NCBI GenBank assembly: GCA_963729045.1
Contig: CAVSMN010000012.1
Location: 256,001-320,000, forward strand
Length of the DNA: 64,000 nt
Direction of reading: 5' to 3'
Source of the DNA: an uncultured Nitrososphaeraceae archaeon
GTDB taxonomy: Archaea > Thermoproteota > Nitrososphaeria > Nitrososphaerales > Nitrososphaeraceae
The notes under the pieces were generated by a model, which was not told the DNA's origin, made no database searches, and was given only the letters and a program-made list of their open reading frames with translations. Below are positions 13,883-24,571 of this stretch, one piece after another. Positions within the stretch are counted from its first letter, which is position 1. Every line of letters starts with the position of its first letter. The position numbers were made by a program, and so were the translations under genes.

Positions 13883-15888
13883 TTACATTCTCATCAAAGG
13901 AGTTATTCCTATGATGTTCATGCATATCTTTAGAATTTTCAGGGTACTATTTAATATCAATGCCCTATAAGTTGCCAGCACTTCATTTTTCTCCTTCAAG
14001 ATTGGTGATCTTTCATAAAAATTATTAAACATTGTAGCAAGTTCAAAGAGATATTTTGAAAGCACCTTTGGATCTATGTTATTAGCAGCGTGCATTAGTT
14101 CAATATCATATCTACATAAGTGTTTAATCAATTCGATTTCGGTAGAAGAAAAATCCAAAATCTCAATATTATTCTCAATATTATTCTTCTTTTCTGAGAA
14201 ACTTTCCTCAATATTTTTATCCTCAACTCGCTTACCCCTCGCATAAGCATATTGGATATAGGAAGCAGTATCTCCTTCAAGGCTCAAGGACTCGTTGATA
14301 TCAAAAGTTATCATTTTTCCGAGATCAAACTTGATGAAAAAATATCTGATTGCTGAGATTGAAATCTCTTTGGATATAAATGCAATTTCTTCTTCTGAGA
14401 GTTCTGGATTCCTCTTTCTAGTTTCTACTTTTGATCTTTCTTCAAGAATGCTCAAGGCTCTATCTGCCTCAATATATATACCTTTCCTTCCAGACATATG
14501 TAATGAATTCTTATACTTTTCAGAAATGCCCAAGCTATCTAGAGAACTTTGGCTTAAAGTGACGGGTTCATAACCTAAATATCTATACTTTGAATCCATC
14601 CCTAATTTTCCTAATATCTCTGATAAAAGATTTTGAAGCCTCTCTTGCCTTGAATCGATAATTGTTATGACCTTGCTTATTCTATTAAAGTCAATCGTTA
14701 ATCCGTTATCATGATCCGAATAGGACTCGTAAGTTTCATTTGGAATTTTCTTAATATTTGTTCTGCATAGAATAGAAGAGTCCCATTGATTTGAGTAAAA
14801 GACGTAATCAAATGGATTTCTCAAATAGCCCAATTTCCAAACTGCAAATGGAATATCTTTAGCGAAATATGTTAAAGTATATCACTTCGCACTAATACCT
14901 TATCTCCTTCTGTTTCTGACTTGTACACCCAACAACCTGCATTTTTTCCAAATTTTTCATGATATATTATTTCTTTATCTCTCAAAATTGAAAAAATATC
15001 AGTCCAAAGGTCTGATTGGATTATTTGCGACTCAAAACATAATAAATCATAACGACATCTCAAATTCCAACAAGTTTTAAGTTGATCCCTTAAAACTCTA
15101 TCAACTATGGTCTGGGTGAAGACCGAAGTCTCCGATTCAGGATTCTCCAATTCCTTTAGAACCGACTTTCTTTTAATTTCTAGATCAGGCCTACTCTTGT
15201 ATAGCTCATTTGTTTTGACGTAAATTTCGTTTCCACAATAATGATCAAATTTTGCTTTTTCATTCGATAATCTTTGATCATCCATTCTAGTAGAGAATCC
15301 TGCATGTTTGAATCCTACAATTATATCAGCCACTTGAACCCCCGAATCGTCAATGTAATTTAAGACCCTGACATCTTTTCCTGCTGTACGAAGAATTCTA
15401 TACAAGCAGTCCCCGATAATGGCGTTTCTAAGGTGTCCTACGTGTAAAGCCTTATTAGGATTCACACTAGTATGTTCTATTAGTATCAATTCTTTCGAAT
15501 TTGATAAGTTCTTGTTTTCATGTTCCAATTTTGGATTATATACTACCTCTTTAAAGAATTCCATTAGAAACACCTTATTATTAATTCTAAAATTGATGAA
15601 ACCGGGATTTACGAATGAAACAGACTCGATCAAACCATTTTTATTCGTCAAGATGTTACTTGCGGGTAAAATAGTATTTACAATATGATTAGCTATCTCA
15701 TGTGGCGACTTTTTTAATTTCTTGGCTAACAAGAAACAAATGTTTGTAGAAAAGTCTCCAAAATCCTTCACATGTGGTTTAGATATTTCAAAATTGACCT
15801 CAGACTTTGTCAAGTTGTAAAACGTTAATACTCCATCAAGAGATTGGCCAATTTCATTGATAACATTTTCTAGTATCATGCAAATCAC
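13883..15888 (-). CDS. argS: Arginine--tRNA ligase (split by a 1-nt indel at ~14880)
   Basis: EHTSVNPNKALHVGHLRN, VLVRSD/(frameshift)TYFAKDI, MSGRKG, EGDTASYIQYAYAR and a C-terminal ...RM. Confidence 0.95.
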
Positions 15889-21274: not shown

Positions 21275-21490
21275 ATGCTAATGCTAAATTCTGAAATAAT
21301 AGCAGGGGTGTCTATATTCTTACTGGGTTTTCTCTTCTTCATAGCTGGACTTTTGAATTCAGTTTGGGCAATTATTTTCATAGTGGATTATCTTATAATG
21401 GCCATTGGCATTGCGACCATAGGGGTTGGGTTTTGGACCGCCACGTATGAGAGGAAGAATAACCTTCATCATAGTGAACATCATCATTAG
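21275..21490 (+). CDS. Small two-TM membrane protein with a His-rich C-terminus
   Basis: 71 aa, two hydrophobic helices, ends in LHHSEHHH. Confidence 0.7.
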   Translation: MLMLNSEIIAGVSIFLLGFLFFIAGLLNSVWAIIFIVDYLIMAIGIATIGVGFWTATYERKNNLHHSEHHH

Positions 21491-21504
21491 TTTGATAAAA
21501 AAAA

Positions 21505-23282
21505 TTATTCATCTACATAATAAATTAAATTATTTTTTTGAACTTCTTGTGAACTTAAACCTATCAGTGATTCTTCCAGTTTGTCATAGTCCGGCAAATC
21601 ACCATTTATGTTCCCTGGGAAAACGAGAGTCAGATTTATGTTGGAATTTAATACATCGTGAAGTTCTTGGTTGGCAGTTGTGACATATGGTCTTAACGCT
21701 CCCCTAAAAACTTCTGACCTCGCACGGACTTCCCCACTTATTTTCTTACCAACCGGCGAATCAGGACCCACTATTACAATGTTTCCTTTAATTCCTACAA
21801 ATAACGAAGGGTCGTCTAATGCCTGGTTGGTAGTCATTGATAATACTGATTGGGTCGTTATCAAATGTGGGATATTAACGAATTTATCCACCATGATGTC
21901 CCATTGTTTACGATCAAGCAAAGTTAATTTGTTGTCATAGTCATAACTACCTGTAAAGTGTATGGCTGAATCTATTCTACCATACCGAGTATTGATTGTA
22001 TTGAATATTTTCTTTACTGTGTTCTCATCAGCTAAGTCGATGGCGTGATGGTGAAATCCTTCAAACGTCTTGCTCACCTCTGTAGATTGCTCATCGTTTT
22101 GAGTAAGGATAATTAGTTGTTTTACGTTTTAGCCCGCTAATCTTCGTTGCAATTCGCTTGACAAAGTTCAATAATTTTTCTTCTGTAGAAGCCGTAGTAA
22201 TCAAAATTGTTTTATTTTCTAAAGTCTTGTCCTGCTCAATATCTATAGTCCTTTCAACTATTGGCTTTACCGGGTAGAAAACTCTGTCATTTGGAATGAC
22301 TTTTCCGTTTAATAACTTGCTCATTTCGTCACTTGCTAAGCTATGTACCATTTCTGCTACATCATCCTGAGATAAGAATTCGTTATCAACTATCATCTTC
22401 TTCGTATTGTTTTGTACCTTTTCTGCAATTTCTTGTATCTTCGCCAAAAGTTCCTTTGCCAAGCGCTGGATCGAGACAGGATCTAGACCTTCGTATTTTT
22501 CAGCTAAGGAAGTCGCTATTTTCTTTGATTCATTGTCGATTATTTCGGGTTCATCGCCTAAATATGGTAATAAGGCAGACTGAAATCTCTTCGATTTGCT
22601 TGTGACTCAGACCGTTAAAACCACCAACCCTTAAAAATTCGGATGCTGCTTTTGGGTATACAGTTTTATATATTCTGTCTGAGTGGACAGGACCAGGATT
22701 TGTTGCAACAGCTTTGATACCTTTCTCAACTAATTCCCATGCAAAACACTCTGAGAGTCTATTCTTTGCACCCTGTGCTGCGGTATATGGTGTTCTAAAC
22801 CTATAAGGTCTCTGATCATATTTGTTCTCCTCAGTGAAAAAAGTGGAAATTGTAATTATCTTGCCAGTATGGTTGAGTACTTCTAAGGCTTTAATACTTG
22901 TCCAAAAAGTACCTGTAAGGTGTATTGAAACACAATCTTTAAACTCTTGATAACTCGAATTTGTAAAAATCTTTACTGGACCAGAAACTCCAGCATTATT
23001 TACGATTATATCTATATGACCAAAGTCGGTACCAATTTTATCAAACATCTTATTAATTGCTTCAAAATCGGAAACATCTACTCCTGGATAATAAGTTACG
23101 GATGATTCAAATTTTTCATCCGTAATTATTTGTTTTAGAATATTTGACGCATCGATTAGAGGTTCTTTCCTCCTCCCTAAAATTATGATATTGTAACCTA
23201 GTTTAGCAAATTTTCTTGCCACAGCTTGACCAATCCCTGTTCCGCTCCCTGTAACAAGTATTGTTTTGTTACTCTTATTCAT
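21505..23282 (-). CDS. Tandem-SDR oxidoreductase related to Chloroflexus-type malonyl-CoA reductase (one ~591-aa gene split by two +1 indels at ~22575 and ~22128)
   Basis: The three track ORFs join after removing one base at each junction. SDR1 has TGSGTGIG, NNAG, STFF, PYRFRTPY and PGPVHSDRI. A second, degenerate SDR domain follows (LENKTILIT...YGRIDSAIHFTG). Confidence 0.85.
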
Positions 23283-23491
23283 TTTAATATTTAATGAGAC
23301 TTAAATCTCTTATATTAATTATTTATCAGAATGCTTTATTGAACGAATAATTCATATATTTTGTAAATCATATTCTGCTTCTCCGTTATTATAATAAAAC
23401 TTTATAAAATAAGTATCATTTCAGAGATAATATAGAAATGGAGAATTATGGAATTATACGAGAATTTACGGTATTGGGGGTAAATAATTAA

Positions 23492-24571
23492 GTGAAAATA
23501 AAATTCGGTTTGACATTTGGCCTAAACGTCGCTAGATTGGGACTGGACGAAATGCAGGTAATTACTGCAGCGCAAATAGCAGATAGAACTAATTTTGACT
23601 CTGTATGGGCAATGGATCACACAAATGTGCCTCAATGGAAAAACGCTGTAGTAAATGATGCCTGGCTAATGTTAGCAGCAATTGGGTCTGTGACCAACAA
23701 CGTGGAGTTAGGGACATGCGTAACAGATGCCATAAGGAGGCACCCTTCAACTATCGCTCTGTCGACGGTGACCCTTGACAGGATAACTAAAGGTAGGGGT
23801 ATACTGGGAATTGGTGCTGGAGAGGCTCAGAATGTAGTTGATTTTGGAATCGAATTCAGTAAGCCTGTGTCAAAATTTAAGGAGCAATTGGAAGTGATTG
23901 AAAAGCTGTTTGAATCCGATCCAGACAATCATGTAAATTACCAGGGTAATTATTATAGCCTTGTTGAAGCTTGTCTACAAGCAAAGCCCATCAGAAAACC
24001 GCGACCACCTGTATATATCGCTGCCGGGGCCCCAAAAACATTAGAATTGTGTGCAACATATGGCGATGGGTGGATACCTATAGGATATACTCCAGCCTTA
24101 TTTGAACATCATGCAAATGTCATTAAGGATCACGCAAAGAGACTAGGCAGGGACATATCCAATTTTGAATTTGCAAATGATGTGGATGTTTATTTTGCTC
24201 CAGACGGAGAAGCAGCATGGGAAAAGATGAAAAAAGCAGTCAAGGTCAGCCTCTACAAACCTGAATTATTGAAGGTTCACAACATACAACAGGATTCCGA
24301 GTTTGATTTTAGGAGATACTTTACTGAATATGCCATGAACAAACCTGAATTGATGGAACAAATGAAAAAAGCATCTTTACAAATCCCTGATGATGTGGCA
24401 AGAACTGCTATAGGAGTTGGCAGCCCAGATGATGTAATAGAAATGTTGGAACGATTTATTAAGGCCGGTACAAATCATTTCATAATTCGTTTCTGGGGTG
24501 AGGGGCTTTATCAAAACATAGAGACCTTCGGAAATAAAGTCGTTCCTTATTTTGCTGACATGCAAAAATAA
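23492..24571 (+). CDS. LLM-class (luciferase-like) oxidoreductase, probably F420-dependent
   Basis: FDSVWAMDH, LGTCVT...RRHP, TLD.IT.GR.ILGIGAG, PPVYIAA..PK.L....YGDGW.P and VGSPDDV. Confidence 0.9.
   Translation: MKIKFGLTFGLNVARLGLDEMQVITAAQIADRTNFDSVWAMDHTNVPQWKNAVVNDAWLMLAAIGSVTNNVELGTCVTDAIRRHPSTIALSTVTLDRITKGRGILGIGAGEAQNVVDFGIEFSKPVSKFKEQLEVIEKLFESDPDNHVNYQGNYYSLVEACLQAKPIRKPRPPVYIAAGAPKTLELCATYGDGWIPIGYTPALFEHHANVIKDHAKRLGRDISNFEFANDVDVYFAPDGEAAWEKMKKAVKVSLYKPELLKVHNIQQDSEFDFRRYFTEYAMNKPELMEQMKKASLQIPDDVARTAIGVGSPDDVIEMLERFIKAGTNHFIIRFWGEGLYQNIETFGNKVVPYFADMQK

What the first reader, a model, noticed from the sequence alone, without database searches (positions are those of the whole stretch)
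21505..23282. Hidden tandem-SDR protein with malonyl-CoA-reductase signatures: candidate missing enzyme of the thaumarchaeal 3HP/4HB cycle
Seen in sequence: three adjacent ORFs join into one ~591-aa protein after removing two single extra bases (~22575, and an A-run at ~22128). Domain 1 has a TGxxxGIG Rossmann motif with basic GRRK after beta-2 (NADPH-type), NNAG, then ISTFF...PYRFRTPYTAAQ...ELxxKGI..NPGPVHSDRI. A ~90-aa helical insert, FLSQDDVA and a second, degenerate SDR domain follow. Established, from recall: Chloroflexus-type bifunctional malonyl-CoA reductase is built from such active+degenerate SDR pairs. Its active domains carry an atypical YxxRxxY motif followed by PGP(I/V)E(S/G)DR. 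To my knowledge the malonyl-CoA and succinyl-CoA reductases of the ammonia-oxidiser 3HP/4HB cycle are not firmly assigned. The canonical YxxxK lysine here is Q (YTAAQ), with a K three residues later. Inference: this is a half-MCR acting as an acyl-CoA or semialdehyde reductase in carbon fixation.
Basis: partly seen in the sequence, partly recalled or inferred. Interest (0 to 1): 0.85.

Follow-up and report, generated by a model that had tools for sequence, protein, structure and literature searches.

The report
Broken-looking malonyl-CoA-reductase-like gene of ammonia oxidisers
Three adjacent reading frames are one conserved 591-residue two-domain reductase gene, split only by two probable assembly errors, and it is a strong untested candidate for a missing carbon-fixation enzyme of ammonia-oxidising archaea.

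Summary
ORFs 22551-23282, 22091-22462 and 21505-22077 (minus strand) cover one 591-aa protein, broken by single extra bases at about 22579 and in the A-run 22127-22130. Both bases are missing from near-identical contigs of three independent DNA studies. Other genes in the window, including aRF1, are frameshifted too. So the breaks are most likely assembly errors.

The protein is an active NADPH-type SDR, a helical insert and a degenerate SDR. Its AF2 model (pLDDT 87) matches both halves of Chloroflexus-type malonyl-CoA reductase (MCR) over its full length (Z 34.3 and 33.4). Single SDRs score lower and cover only half.

In 151 genomes of the order it occurs only in the four amoA-bearing families (64 of 66) and in 0 of 84 others. 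It was found in 0 of 216 other genomes of the phylum.

It belongs to a separate "Q-type" clade in which the YxxxK lysine is Gln and a Lys sits three residues later. Bacterial members are fused to ligase, hydratase and enoyl-reductase domains.

Best reading: malonyl-CoA (perhaps also succinyl-CoA) reductase of the HP/HB cycle. This is unproven, and Hallam 2006 tentatively flagged a similar candidate.

The parts
21505..23282 (-). Whole gene for a 591-aa tandem-SDR ('Q-type half-MCR'), start codon at 23280-23282 and stop at 21505-21507. It reads through only if two single extra bases are ignored.
   Evidence: three frames together cover residues 1-591 of the intact orthologue L004:1501-3276.
22579..23282 (-). 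Frame A, residues 1 to about 238: catalytic Rossmann SDR up to the start of the helical insert.
   Evidence: Pfam adh_short 1.7e-33. tblastn 92% identity to residues 1-238.
23229..23252 (-). TGSGTGIG dinucleotide-binding motif (residues 11-18). GRR (G36 R37 R38) follows strand beta-2.
   Evidence: Invariant in 22 of 22 aligned orthologues. R37 aligns with Roseiflexus MCR R41 and R616, which bind the 2'-phosphate of NADP+ (PMC10470521, passages).
22764..22805 (-). YRFRTPYTAAQGAK (residues 160-173): YxxRxxY motif, catalytic Tyr166, Gln170 at the canonical Lys position and Lys173 three residues later.
   Evidence: Y160, R163, Y166, Q170 and K173 are invariant in 22 of 22. They align with Roseiflexus MCR Y743, R746, Y749 and K753.
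22671..22697 (-). PGPVHSDRI (residues 196-204). It starts the most conserved block of the protein, NPGPVHSDRIYKTVYPKAA, a lid-like helix.
   Evidence: R203 aligns with Roseiflexus MCR R785 and R215.
22578..22580 (-). First extra base (frameshift 1): an extra T in CAG[T]CTGCC on the minus strand.
   Evidence: absent from 4 of 4 orthologue DNAs; one base left out at 22580 in contigs of X1, X3 and X6, and at 22578 in a minor X3 contig.
22128..22578 (-). Frame B, residues about 236-387: helical insert, the C-terminal SDR segment FLSQDDVA...NGKVIPNDRVFYPVKP, and the first strand of domain 2 (KTILITTAST, with no glycine motif).
   Evidence: 83% identity. (adh_short_C2 positions 182-232). (helices 201-322 in the model's numbering).
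22127..22130 (-). Second extra base (frameshift 2): an A-run of 4 where orthologues have 3.
   Evidence: 4 of 4 orthologue DNAs have one A fewer; one base left out at 22126 (X1, X3, X6) and at 22127 (RNA-library contig of X15).
21505..22127 (-). Frame C, residues about 385-591 plus stop: degenerate (pseudo) SDR domain.
   Evidence: 88% identity. (weak adh_short hits below cut-off). (Rossmann-like second domain aligned to SDR2 and SDR4 of MCR).
21688..21726 (-). RARSEVFRGALRP (residues 519-531): arginine cluster in the pseudo-SDR at the place of a catalytic helix.
   Evidence: R519, R521, R526 and R530 are invariant or near-invariant in 22 orthologues. R526 is kept in the 5 non-AOA Q-type units that aligned there. 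There is no Arg counterpart in MCR SDR4. A ligand-binding role is inference.

Best explanation
The three ORFs are one core gene of ammonia-oxidising archaea (AOA). In this assembly it is broken by two single-base insertion errors and is intact in the living organism. It encodes a stand-alone 'half' of a Chloroflexus-type malonyl-CoA reductase. The parts are an NADPH-binding catalytic SDR domain, a roughly 100-residue helical insert and a cofactor-less pseudo-SDR domain.

It belongs to a distinct 'Q-type' lineage of that superfamily. Here the YxxxK lysine is Gln and a Lys lies three residues further along the same helix. The Tyr-Arg pair and the PGPxxxDR arginine, which hold the malonyl carboxylate in MCR, are kept.

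[quoted passage not shown] Hydride would go from NADPH to the thioester carbonyl, with Tyr166, Thr147 and Arg163 acting on the oxyanion and CoA thiolate. The insert and the arginine-rich pseudo-SDR would form the CoA pocket.

Shown: gene integrity in nature, fold, motifs, distribution and domain fusions of relatives. Inferred: substrate, the step catalysed and the residue roles.
For: (1) Assembly error.
- Both extra bases are left out in near-identical contigs from three DNA studies, and the second also in an RNA-library contig.
- In the same window aRF1 and two other genes change frame relative to G004, and ArgRS lies in pieces.

(2) Fold.
- AF2 model: pLDDT 87, pTM 0.88.
- All Foldseek entries listed down to rank 24 are MCR (E about 1e-25, TMq about 0.70). 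The next is a tandem SDR of MFE-2 (E 6e-19, TMq 0.54), then single SDRs (E 1e-13, TMq 0.35).
- VIA-align: MCR-C Z 34.3 with 508 residues aligned; MCR-N Z 33.4 with 487 aligned; single SDRs Z 28.5 or less with about 250 aligned.

(3) Residues.
- T147, Y160, R163, Y166 and R203 align with Roseiflexus MCR S731, Y743, R746, Y749 and R785. These were shown essential by mutagenesis (PMC10470521, passages).
- R37 aligns with the 2'-phosphate binders R41 and R616.

(4) Distribution.
- Order draw of 151 genomes: found in f1 22/23, f4 9/9, f9 10/11 and f13 23/23, and in 0/84 of the other 16 families.
- Archaeal amoA shows f1 22/23, f4 9/9, f9 11/11, f13 23/23 and 0/84.
- Phylum draw: f13 34/34 and 0/216 in 41 other families.

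(5) Fusions.
- Q-type units in bacterial proteins are followed by a K-type SDR.
- In P0135 and P0172 they are also joined to an acetyl-CoA-synthetase-like ligase, enoyl-CoA hydratase and crotonyl-CoA-reductase-like domains. The best PDB match of both is 6eqo. Together these are the activities needed from malonyl-CoA to propionyl-CoA.

(6) Which step.
- The loop between the catalytic Ser/Thr and the YxxRxxY motif is 12 residues in the Q-type and 11 in SDR3. It is 6 in the K-type and 6 in SDR1.
- SDR3 has K at +4 and Q at +7 from the Tyr. The Q-type has Q at +4 and K at +7.

(7) Open slot.
- The AOA malonyl-CoA and succinyl-CoA reductases were unassigned in PMC6038301 (2018) and are absent from the thaumarchaeal marker set in PMC12894919 (2026).
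- The ALDH family, the obvious rival, is not AOA-specific and was not found in 3 of 23 f13 genomes that are 99% complete.
Against: - No enzyme assay exists.
- Homology does not say which half it resembles. hhalign gives 307 against MCR-N and 289 against MCR-C.
- All 22 of 22 AOA domains score 4-34 bits higher on an SDR1 (alcohol-forming) profile than on an SDR3 profile.
- The lid sequence (S-D-R-I-x-x-V-Y) looks more like SDR1's alpha-10 helix.
- In the roughly 1130-aa bacterial [Q][K] proteins the Q-type unit is N-terminal and lacks the insert, like MCR-N.
- The tree leaves the order of the four clades unresolved.
- The Roseiflexus MCR CoA-binding R1164 column appears to be Asp/Glu in the AOA proteins. 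This mapping goes through a homologue whose numbering is offset, so it is uncertain.
- The canonical catalytic Lys is missing.
- The AOA form one clade, so the amoA co-occurrence is in effect one evolutionary event and would fit any AOA-specific function.
- No HP/HB gene is adjacent in the window or in 5 other AOA loci.
- One genome (G026) has only a weak Fe-ADH hit, so a semialdehyde-reductase role is not excluded there.
- The candidate is obvious enough that it may have been tested unsuccessfully without publication. Konneke 2014 and Otte 2015 were not readable here.
Confidence: 0.5

Rival explanations
1. The protein works in the HP/HB cycle as a semialdehyde reductase (succinic semialdehyde to 4-hydroxybutyrate, or malonic semialdehyde to 3-hydroxypropionate). 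That would make it the counterpart of MCR's N-terminal, alcohol-forming half.
For: AOA domains score higher on the SDR1 profile in 22 of 22 cases. hhalign scores are slightly higher against MCR-N (307 against 289). The catalytic residue is Thr147, as in SDR1 (T165), not Ser as in SDR3 (PMC10470521). The lid sequence resembles SDR1's. In [Q][K] bacterial proteins the Q-type unit sits N-terminally, like MCR-N. Succinic semialdehyde reductase was also listed as unidentified in 2018 (PMC6038301). G026 has only a weak Fe-ADH hit.
Against: Loop length and the K/Q pair at +4 and +7 link the Q-type to SDR3 and the K-type to SDR1. In the fusions the K-type carries the canonical triad expected of an aldehyde-to-alcohol reductase, which leaves the acyl-CoA step to the Q-type. 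A malonic semialdehyde reductase of another family is already assigned in N. maritimus (cited in PMC12794621 and PMC12894919; the original paper was not readable). The AOA proteins have a helical insert at the place of MCR-C's extra domain.
Confidence: 0.17
2. It is an AOA-specific reductase for some other small carboxylated carbonyl or acyl-thioester compound, unrelated to carbon fixation. The resemblance to MCR would then reflect only shared ancestry.
For: Co-occurrence with amoA is a single-clade pattern. There is no gene-neighbourhood link to HP/HB genes; the only recurrent neighbour is a TauE/SafE membrane protein, in 4 of 5 loci. The canonical Lys is replaced. It is not inside either characterised MCR clade. 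All database names are generic.
Against: The carboxylate-binding Tyr-Arg pair and the PGPxxxDR arginine of MCR are invariant. Relatives are fused to ligase, hydratase and enoyl-reductase domains of the 3-hydroxypropionate route. It is retained in streamlined 1.1-1.2 Mb AOA genomes (G140, G355), as expected of a central enzyme.
Confidence: 0.2
3. The gene is a true pseudogene in this strain: the two insertions are real.
For: The window as given has two frameshifts. The first is not in a homopolymer. No run identical to the assembly was found (best word share 0.69), so the strain's own reads were not examined.
Against: Contigs 99% or more alike from three studies lack both bases. The pieces remain 83-92% identical to the orthologue with no further stops. 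Essential genes such as aRF1 and ArgRS are broken in the same window. The genome scores 87% complete on 22 contigs. The gene was found in 64 of 66 genomes of the amoA-bearing families.
Confidence: 0.06

Closest known systems
C-terminal half (SDR3, extra domain, SDR4) of bifunctional malonyl-CoA reductase of Chloroflexus, Roseiflexus and Porphyrobacter (PDB 8aet, 8hi5, 6k8u)
   Same: Catalytic SDR, helical insert and pseudo-SDR aligned over model residues 1-588 (Z 34.3, rmsd 3.5, 508 residues). Shared motifs are the YxxRxxY Tyr-Arg pair, PGPVxxDR, and an NADP 2'-phosphate Arg after beta-2. The loop before the Tyr-Arg pair is long in both (12 against 11 residues).
   Different: About 16-18% identity. 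The Lys of YxxxK is Gln, with Lys moved to +7, whereas SDR3 has K at +4 and Q at +7. The catalytic residue is Thr instead of Ser. The insert is shorter. The R1164 equivalent is not conserved, and the AOA protein has its own Arg cluster in the pseudo-SDR. It stands alone at 591 aa and forms a separate clade.
N-terminal half (SDR1 and SDR2) of the same enzyme, the malonic semialdehyde reductase part (PDB 8hi6, 8aew, 6k8v)
   Same: Z 33.4, rmsd 3.1, 487 residues. Catalytic Thr, YxxRxxY, and a PGPIESERI-type lid. Higher profile scores.
   Different: SDR1 has a loop 6 residues shorter, no large insert and a canonical Lys. It forms a separate clade.
Uncharacterised bacterial 'Q-type' units: Acidobacteria/Polarisedimenticolia proteins of about 1130 aa ([Q][K]), Deltaproteobacteria proteins of about 1670 aa, and giant proteins of 2552-6910 aa (P0125, P0124, P0135, P0172, P0149)
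   Same: Same clade (SH-aLRT 98). Same Y..R..YT..Q..K signature and VYP lid. P0125 matches over the whole unit (profile positions 3-591, 455 bits; 36% identity).
   Different: These are fused to a second, K-type SDR unit. In some they are also fused to ligase, hydratase and enoyl-reductase domains. Most lack the AOA insert. None is characterised.
Sulfolobales malonyl-CoA/succinyl-CoA reductase (aspartate-semialdehyde-dehydrogenase type; recalled, K15017 in PMC12894919)
   Same: It would fill the same pathway steps.
   Different: An unrelated fold. The window protein hits only SDR-type Pfam families.

Membership tests
Chloroflexus-type malonyl-CoA reductase superfamily (catalytic SDR + pseudo-SDR unit) | Tandem unit: cofactor-binding catalytic SDR followed by a degenerate SDR, matched over the full length | tested here: met
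   AF2 model pLDDT 87. All Foldseek entries listed down to rank 24 are MCR. VIA-align Z 34.3 and 33.4 over residues 1-588/590. hhalign probability 100% to both halves.
Chloroflexus-type malonyl-CoA reductase superfamily (catalytic SDR + pseudo-SDR unit) | YxxRxxY Tyr-Arg pair and PGPxxx(D/E)R arginine in the catalytic domain | tested here: met
   Y160, R163, Y166 and R203 are invariant in 22 of 22 and aligned to Roseiflexus MCR Y743, R746, Y749, R785 and to Y172, R175, Y178, R215. Seven single-domain SDRs among the hits also carry YxxRxxY, so the motif is not exclusive.
Chloroflexus-type malonyl-CoA reductase superfamily (catalytic SDR + pseudo-SDR unit) | Canonical Ser/Thr-Tyr-Lys triad (YxxxK) | tested here: not met
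   Gln170 at the Lys position is invariant in 22 of 22. Lys173 lies at +7.
Chloroflexus-type malonyl-CoA reductase superfamily (catalytic SDR + pseudo-SDR unit) | NADPH preference: Arg after beta-2 contacting the 2'-phosphate | tested here: met
   G36-R37-R38 is invariant. R37 aligns with R41 and R616 (their role is from PMC10470521). Cofactor use itself was not assayed.
Bifunctional MCR proper (K14468-type, about 1220 aa) | Four SDR domains in one chain, both reduction steps | tested here: not met
   591 aa, one unit. No partner K-type unit was seen: the own genome's other 8 SDR hits score 61.6 bits or less in frames of 240-332 aa.
Bifunctional MCR proper (K14468-type, about 1220 aa) | Placement inside the SDR1 or the SDR3 clade | tested here: not met
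   Separate Q-type clade (SH-aLRT 98). SDR1 and SDR3 are each supported at 100. The branching order among them is unresolved.
MCR-C (CoA-acylating half) | CoA-binding residues of the extra domain and SDR4 (Roseiflexus MCR R799, K807, K919, R1164) | tested here: inconclusive
   Invariant R218 aligns next to R799. The putative R1164 column is D/E in the AOA proteins, and there is a different Arg cluster at 519-530. Residue mapping went through a homologue with offset numbering.
MCR-C (CoA-acylating half) | Malonyl-CoA reductase activity stopping at the semialdehyde | not testable with these tools
   Needs an enzyme assay.
Classical SDR (Pfam adh_short PF00106) | Profile match above the curated cut-off | tested here: met
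   116.2 bits against a cut-off of 26.6 for ORF A. NCBIfam gives only generic SDR models, all below their cut-offs.
Core gene set of ammonia-oxidising archaea | Present in nearly all amoA-bearing genomes and not found in relatives without amoA | tested here: met
   64 of 66 against 0 of 84 in the order draw. amoA gives 65 of 66 against 0 of 84. 0 of 216 elsewhere in the phylum. The tallies include the unpublished genome G122 as one f7 row.

The most novel reading that the evidence does not exclude
Q-type tandem SDRs are a third, so far unrecognised lineage of malonyl-CoA-reductase enzymes, with the catalytic Lys moved one helical turn (Q at +4, K at +7). In ammonia-oxidising archaea the stand-alone form would be the long-sought NADPH-dependent malonyl-CoA reductase, possibly bifunctional with succinyl-CoA, of the most energy-efficient aerobic CO2-fixation cycle. 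In Acidobacteria, Deltaproteobacteria and unnamed bacteria the same unit would be built into [Q][K] reductases, and into giant polypeptides that carry every activity from malonyl-CoA to propionyl-CoA.
Probability: 0.35. Interest if true: 0.85.

Novelty: new variant of a known kind. Interest (0 to 1): 0.7.

Why it matters
[quoted passage not shown] PMC6038301 (2018) says so outright, and PMC12894919 (2026) has no such marker in its thaumarchaeal set.

This gene offers a single, well-defined candidate that can be cloned and assayed. If it is confirmed:
- it closes a gap in the pathway;
- it gives a specific genomic marker for thaumarchaeal autotrophy;
- it adds a compact 591-residue NADPH-dependent malonyl-CoA reductase with unusual catalytic residues to the toolbox for 3-hydroxypropionate production.

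The bacterial fusion proteins hint at unexplored 3-hydroxypropionate-type modules outside Chloroflexota.

The practical lesson for this window is ordinary: the assembly carries single-base indels that split real genes.

Tried and rejected
1. Sequence-only PDB search. MCR ranks first only because two domains add up. A single FabG-like SDR (5unl) outscores each MCR domain. So I did not use rank by phmmer as evidence of affinity.

2. NCBIfam. Only generic SDR models matched, all below their cut-offs.

3. Deciding N-half against C-half gave no consistent answer.
- VIA-align: Z 34.3 against 33.4.
- hhalign: 289 against 307.
- SDR1 and SDR3 profile scores favour SDR1.
- phmmer favours SDR3 by 2-8 bits.

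4. Gene neighbourhood. No HP/HB genes lie next to the gene in the window or in 5 diverse AOA loci. Only a TauE/SafE gene recurs, in 4 of 5.

5. The listing of cluster members for names of the giant proteins: the database was switched off.

I ran the shorter ones instead. P0124, P0125 and P0149 therefore have no domain map beyond my own profile.

7. Earlier findings of this scan: nothing to show.

8. Papers.
- Konneke 2014 and Otte 2015 are not held.
- The supplements of Hallam 2006 hold no mention of the candidate, so its identity with this gene is not proven.
- A search for '6EQO' with 'propionyl-CoA synthase' found nothing. The identity of 6eqo as propionyl-CoA synthase is recalled.
- Searches found no paper assigning an AOA malonyl-CoA reductase.

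9. RNA-library contigs. Six metatranscriptome runs hold 24-40% of the sampled words, and contigs of X15 cover 21400-22567 and 22867-23054. These are contigs and may contain DNA, so I do not count them as proof of expression. X15 has no cover at 22580.

10. Fe-ADH count in 5 AOA genomes. It is too ambiguous to settle which alcohol-forming steps are already covered, because the weak hits may belong to other members of the superfamily.
Full report
**Observation.** On the minus strand the window holds three adjacent ORFs: 22551-23282 (243 aa), 22091-22462 (123 aa) and 21505-22077 (190 aa). All 18 same-genus genomes searched have a strong match. In 17 of them it lies in an open frame of 591-625 aa, and in G018 in a frame of 463 aa. 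In the 11 loci I extracted, the ORF from the conserved start is 591 aa in ten and 594 aa in one.

tblastn of one intact orthologue (L004) on the window covers residues 1-238, 236-387 and 385-591 in three frames, at 92%, 83% and 88% identity. DNA alignments with four orthologues show two single-base insertions in the window. One is a T in CAG[T]CTGCC at about 22579. The other is a fourth A in the run 22127-22130. Residue numbers below refer to the 591-aa protein.

**Are the breaks real?** Probably not.
- I laid public contigs on 21400-23400. Contigs from three DNA studies (X1, X3, X6) include pieces 99% or more alike; X3 record 15, for example, has 1815 nt with 14 differing letters. All of them leave out one base at 22126 and one at 22580. 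An RNA-library contig (X15) leaves out one at 22127.
- I compared 36 reading frames of 150 aa or more, from 40 kb of the syntenic region of G004, with the window. Frame changes appear in four genes: this one (two), aRF1 (about 28150), a 193-aa gene (about 32953 and 32806) and a 330-aa gene (about 39180).
- Arginyl-tRNA synthetase lies in two ORFs, 13883-14833 and 14872-15888, and is in pieces in G004 as well.
- Breaks in essential genes, and a completeness of 87% on only 22 contigs, point to indel errors in the assembly.
- I could not examine the assembly's own reads. The best run holds 0.69 of the sampled words. A true pseudogene therefore keeps a small probability.

**What the protein is.** Names given by sources to proteins 68-100% identical to the L004 query place the genus in Candidatus Nitrosocosmicus. 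The products are named only 'SDR family oxidoreductase' or 'glucose 1-dehydrogenase'.

Pfam finds adh_short in the first ORF (1.7e-33). In the other two it finds only sub-threshold SDR fragments.

An alignment of 22 orthologues from four families (A3) shows these invariant features:
- TGSGTGIG;
- G36-R37-R38;
- NNAGVSGPV;
- T147;
- the block Q157-RPYRFR-x-PYT-xx-QGAKNRL;
- an unbroken invariant run NPGPVHSDRIYKTVYPKAA;
- in the second domain, no glycine motif but a conserved RAR-x-EVFRGALRP.

The AF2 model built on this alignment has pLDDT 87.0 and pTM 0.88. It shows a Rossmann domain, a bundle of helices (about residues 201-322) and a second Rossmann-like domain.

**Comparison with known structures.**
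- Foldseek against the PDB: all entries listed down to rank 24 are malonyl-CoA reductase (MCR). C-terminal halves have E about 1e-25 and TMq 0.70-0.72. N-terminal halves reach TMt 0.75-0.76.
- They are followed by the tandem SDR of yeast MFE-2 (E 6e-19, TMq 0.54), then by single SDRs (E about 1e-13, TMq about 0.35).
- VIA-align: Z 34.3 (rmsd 3.5, 508 residues) for MCR-C and Z 33.4 (rmsd 3.1, 487 residues) for MCR-N, both across model residues 1-588/590. Single SDRs reach Z 28.5 or less with about 250 residues.

That is not met for structure. For sequence scores it is partly met: 5unl, a single SDR, scores 67 bits, while the two MCR domains score 58.8 and 51.6 bits.

**Residues.** In the alignment with Roseiflexus MCR (8hi4):
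- T147 falls on S731 (SDR3) and T165 (SDR1);
- Y160 and R163 on the Y743-R746 pair (and Y172, R175);
- Y166 on Y749 (and Y178);
- R203 on R785 (and R215);
- R37 on R616 (and R41).

The Roseiflexus MCR paper (PMC10470521, passages read) reports that these residues bind malonic semialdehyde, CoA or the NADP 2'-phosphate, and that alanine replacements abolish or strongly lower activity.

The canonical Lys (K753, K182) is Gln170 in the AOA protein, and Lys173 follows at +7. SDR3 has the mirror arrangement (K at +4, Q at +7; YAVSKAGQ against YTAAQGAK). SDR1 has K at +4 and Leu at +7.

**Relatives.** An exhaustive phmmer search found 37 representatives at E 1e-30 or below. Beyond the AOA clusters and fragments, the best are very long proteins and proteins of about 1100-1700 aa.

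With a profile of A3:
- the whole unit is recovered in P0125 (5572 aa, profile positions 3-591, 455 bits), P0124 and P0140;
- the unit without the insert, followed by a second SDR, is recovered in P0129, P0132, P0135, P0141, P0147, P0148, P0149 and P0172;
- P0143 (675 aa) shows the unit alone.

Ten of these units share the signature Y..R..YT..Q..K ('Q-type'). In five proteins the following SDR has a normal Lys ('K-type').

A maximum-likelihood tree of 104 catalytic domains gives an MCR super-clade (SH-aLRT 87) made of four clades:
- SDR1 (100);
- SDR3 (100);
- K-type (99);
- Q-type, which contains all the AOA sequences (98).

The order among the four is unresolved. The AOA protein is thus a member of the MCR superfamily but of neither characterised half.

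The [Q][K] proteins of about 1130 aa come from Acidobacteria/Polarisedimenticolia MAGs. A 1664-aa form carries a Deltaproteobacteria name. None has a specific name.

**Domain fusions.**
- P0135 (2552 aa) carries a crotonyl-CoA-reductase-like domain (residues 2-321). It also carries an enoyl-CoA hydratase at 575-877, whose hits include the 3-hydroxypropionyl-CoA dehydratase 5zai (E 2e-31). A Q-type unit and a K-type SDR follow.
- P0172 (4553 aa) carries two hydratase domains, an acetyl-CoA-synthetase-like ligase, a stretch matching residues 1242-1762 of 6eqo, a Q-like unit and a K-type SDR.
- 6eqo is the top PDB hit of both proteins (E 6e-53 and 3e-40). From recall it is the trifunctional propionyl-CoA synthase; the PDB copy names it acetyl-coenzyme A synthetase, and I could not confirm the recall.
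- Together these are the activities that convert malonyl-CoA through 3-hydroxypropionate to propionyl-CoA. This ties the Q-type unit functionally to that route.

**Distribution.** In an even draw of 151 genomes of the order, a full-length match (E 1e-142 or below) occurs in f1 22/23, f4 9/9, f9 10/11 and f13 23/23. It occurs in 0/84 genomes of the 16 other families. Pfam's archaeal AmoA in the same draw gives 22/23, 9/9, 11/11, 23/23 and 0/84.

The mismatches are:
- G162: amoA yes, SDR no (97% complete, 170 contigs);
- G144: SDR yes, amoA no;
- G118: amoA yes, SDR no (67% complete).

All but one genome have a single match. G003 has a second, stop-ridden fragment. In a draw of 251 genomes of the phylum the gene is in f13 34/34 and in 0/216 genomes of 41 other families. 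These tallies include the unpublished genome G122 as one f7 row.

The four families form one ammonia-oxidiser group, so this pattern counts as roughly one evolutionary event. It shows a core, lineage-specific gene, not a specific pathway.

The aldehyde dehydrogenase family is a natural rival for a CoA-acylating step. It is found in 133/151 genomes, with and without amoA. It was not found in three f13 genomes that are 99% complete.

**Which step?** The evidence is mixed, and I report both sides.

For an acyl-CoA-reducing, aldehyde-forming role:
- The loop between the catalytic Ser/Thr and the Tyr-Arg pair has 12 residues in the Q-type and 11 in SDR3. It has 6 in both the K-type and SDR1.
- There is a K/Q swap relative to SDR3.
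- There is a helical insert at the place of MCR-C's extra domain.
- In the fusions the K-type has the canonical triad expected of the aldehyde-to-alcohol step, and its best PDB stretch is SDR1. For P0172 the Q unit's best stretch is SDR3.
- A malonic semialdehyde reductase of another family is already assigned in N. maritimus (cited in PMC12894919 and PMC12794621).

Against it:
- All 22 AOA domains score higher on an SDR1 profile than on an SDR3 profile.
- hhalign slightly prefers MCR-N (307 against 289).
- The catalytic Thr and the lid sequence resemble SDR1.
- The Q unit is N-terminal and insert-less in the proteins of about 1130 aa.
- The putative counterpart of the CoA-binding R1164 is not conserved.

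The pseudo-SDR carries its own arginine cluster at 519-530. R526 is kept in the five non-AOA units that aligned there. A role in binding the CoA phosphates is only an inference.

**Context.** Neighbours in the window are housekeeping genes: diphthamide synthase, SRP54, Pus10, an F420-type luciferase-like oxidoreductase, a beta-CASP nuclease, iPGM and aRF1. In five other AOA loci no HP/HB gene is adjacent. A TauE/SafE membrane gene lies tail-to-tail next to the gene in four of them.

**Literature.**
- PMC6038301 (2018, passages) states that malonyl-CoA, acryloyl-CoA, succinyl-CoA and succinic semialdehyde reductases of N. maritimus 'have yet to be identified', although their activities were measured in extracts.
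- PMC12894919 (2026, passages) lists no malonyl-CoA reductase marker for the thaumarchaeal variant.
- Seven searches found no later assignment.
- Hallam et al. 2006 (PMC1403158, passages) already named, tentatively, a C. symbiosum gene as an MCR candidate. It has an N-terminal SDR domain 32% identical to C. aurantiacus MCR and an adjacent 142-aa interval. It is probably the orthologue, but I could not verify that.
- Konneke 2014 and Otte 2015 were not available, so an unpublished or published negative test cannot be excluded.

**Verdict.** The gene is a conserved, AOA-specific, stand-alone member of a new Q-type branch of the MCR superfamily. [quoted passage not shown] I put about 0.5 on the whole statement, about 0.65 on any reductive step of the cycle, and 0.9 or more on the structural assignment and on the gene being intact in nature. 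I rate it a new variant of a known kind. It is of high interest because it turns an open question into a simple enzyme assay.

Noticed in passing
window 13883-15888 (-), about 28150, about 32806 and 32953, about 39180: Other genes are split by frame changes relative to the same-genus genome G004. aRF1 has one shift, a 193-aa gene two and a 330-aa gene one. Arginyl-tRNA synthetase lies in two ORFs here and in pieces in G004 too. The pattern suggests indel errors in both assemblies.
   Followed up: partly
L042:5624-6373, L043:6199-6987, L044:6360-7007, L045:6318-7016: A TauE/SafE-family membrane protein gene lies tail-to-tail right after the tandem-SDR gene in 4 of 5 diverse AOA loci. It is not there in G161 or in the window. 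I saw no obvious functional link.
   Followed up: partly
proteins P0124 (5945 aa), P0125 (5572 aa), P0149 (6910 aa), P0172 (4553 aa), P0140 (1465 aa): Giant proteins of unknown organisms carry Q-type MCR-like units, and their N-termini look like signal peptides or membrane anchors. P0172 adds ligase, hydratase and reductase domains. P0140 ends in a histidine-kinase ATPase domain. Their biology is unexplored.
   Followed up: partly
window 23492-24571 (+): The luciferase-like (F420-type) oxidoreductase divergent from the SDR gene is 99.7% identical in protein to its G004 counterpart. Neighbouring genes are 77-98% identical. This is either unusually strong conservation or a recent exchange.
   Followed up: no
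window 21275-21490 (+): A small 71-aa ORF just downstream of the SDR gene on the opposite strand is predicted to be hydrophobic and ends in a His-rich tail (HHSEHHH). I did not check whether it is conserved.
   Followed up: no
G003:C129:192-1013: One same-genus genome has a second, partial copy of the C-terminal half (52% identity, residues 315-587) with four in-frame stops. It looks like a decayed duplicate.
   Followed up: no
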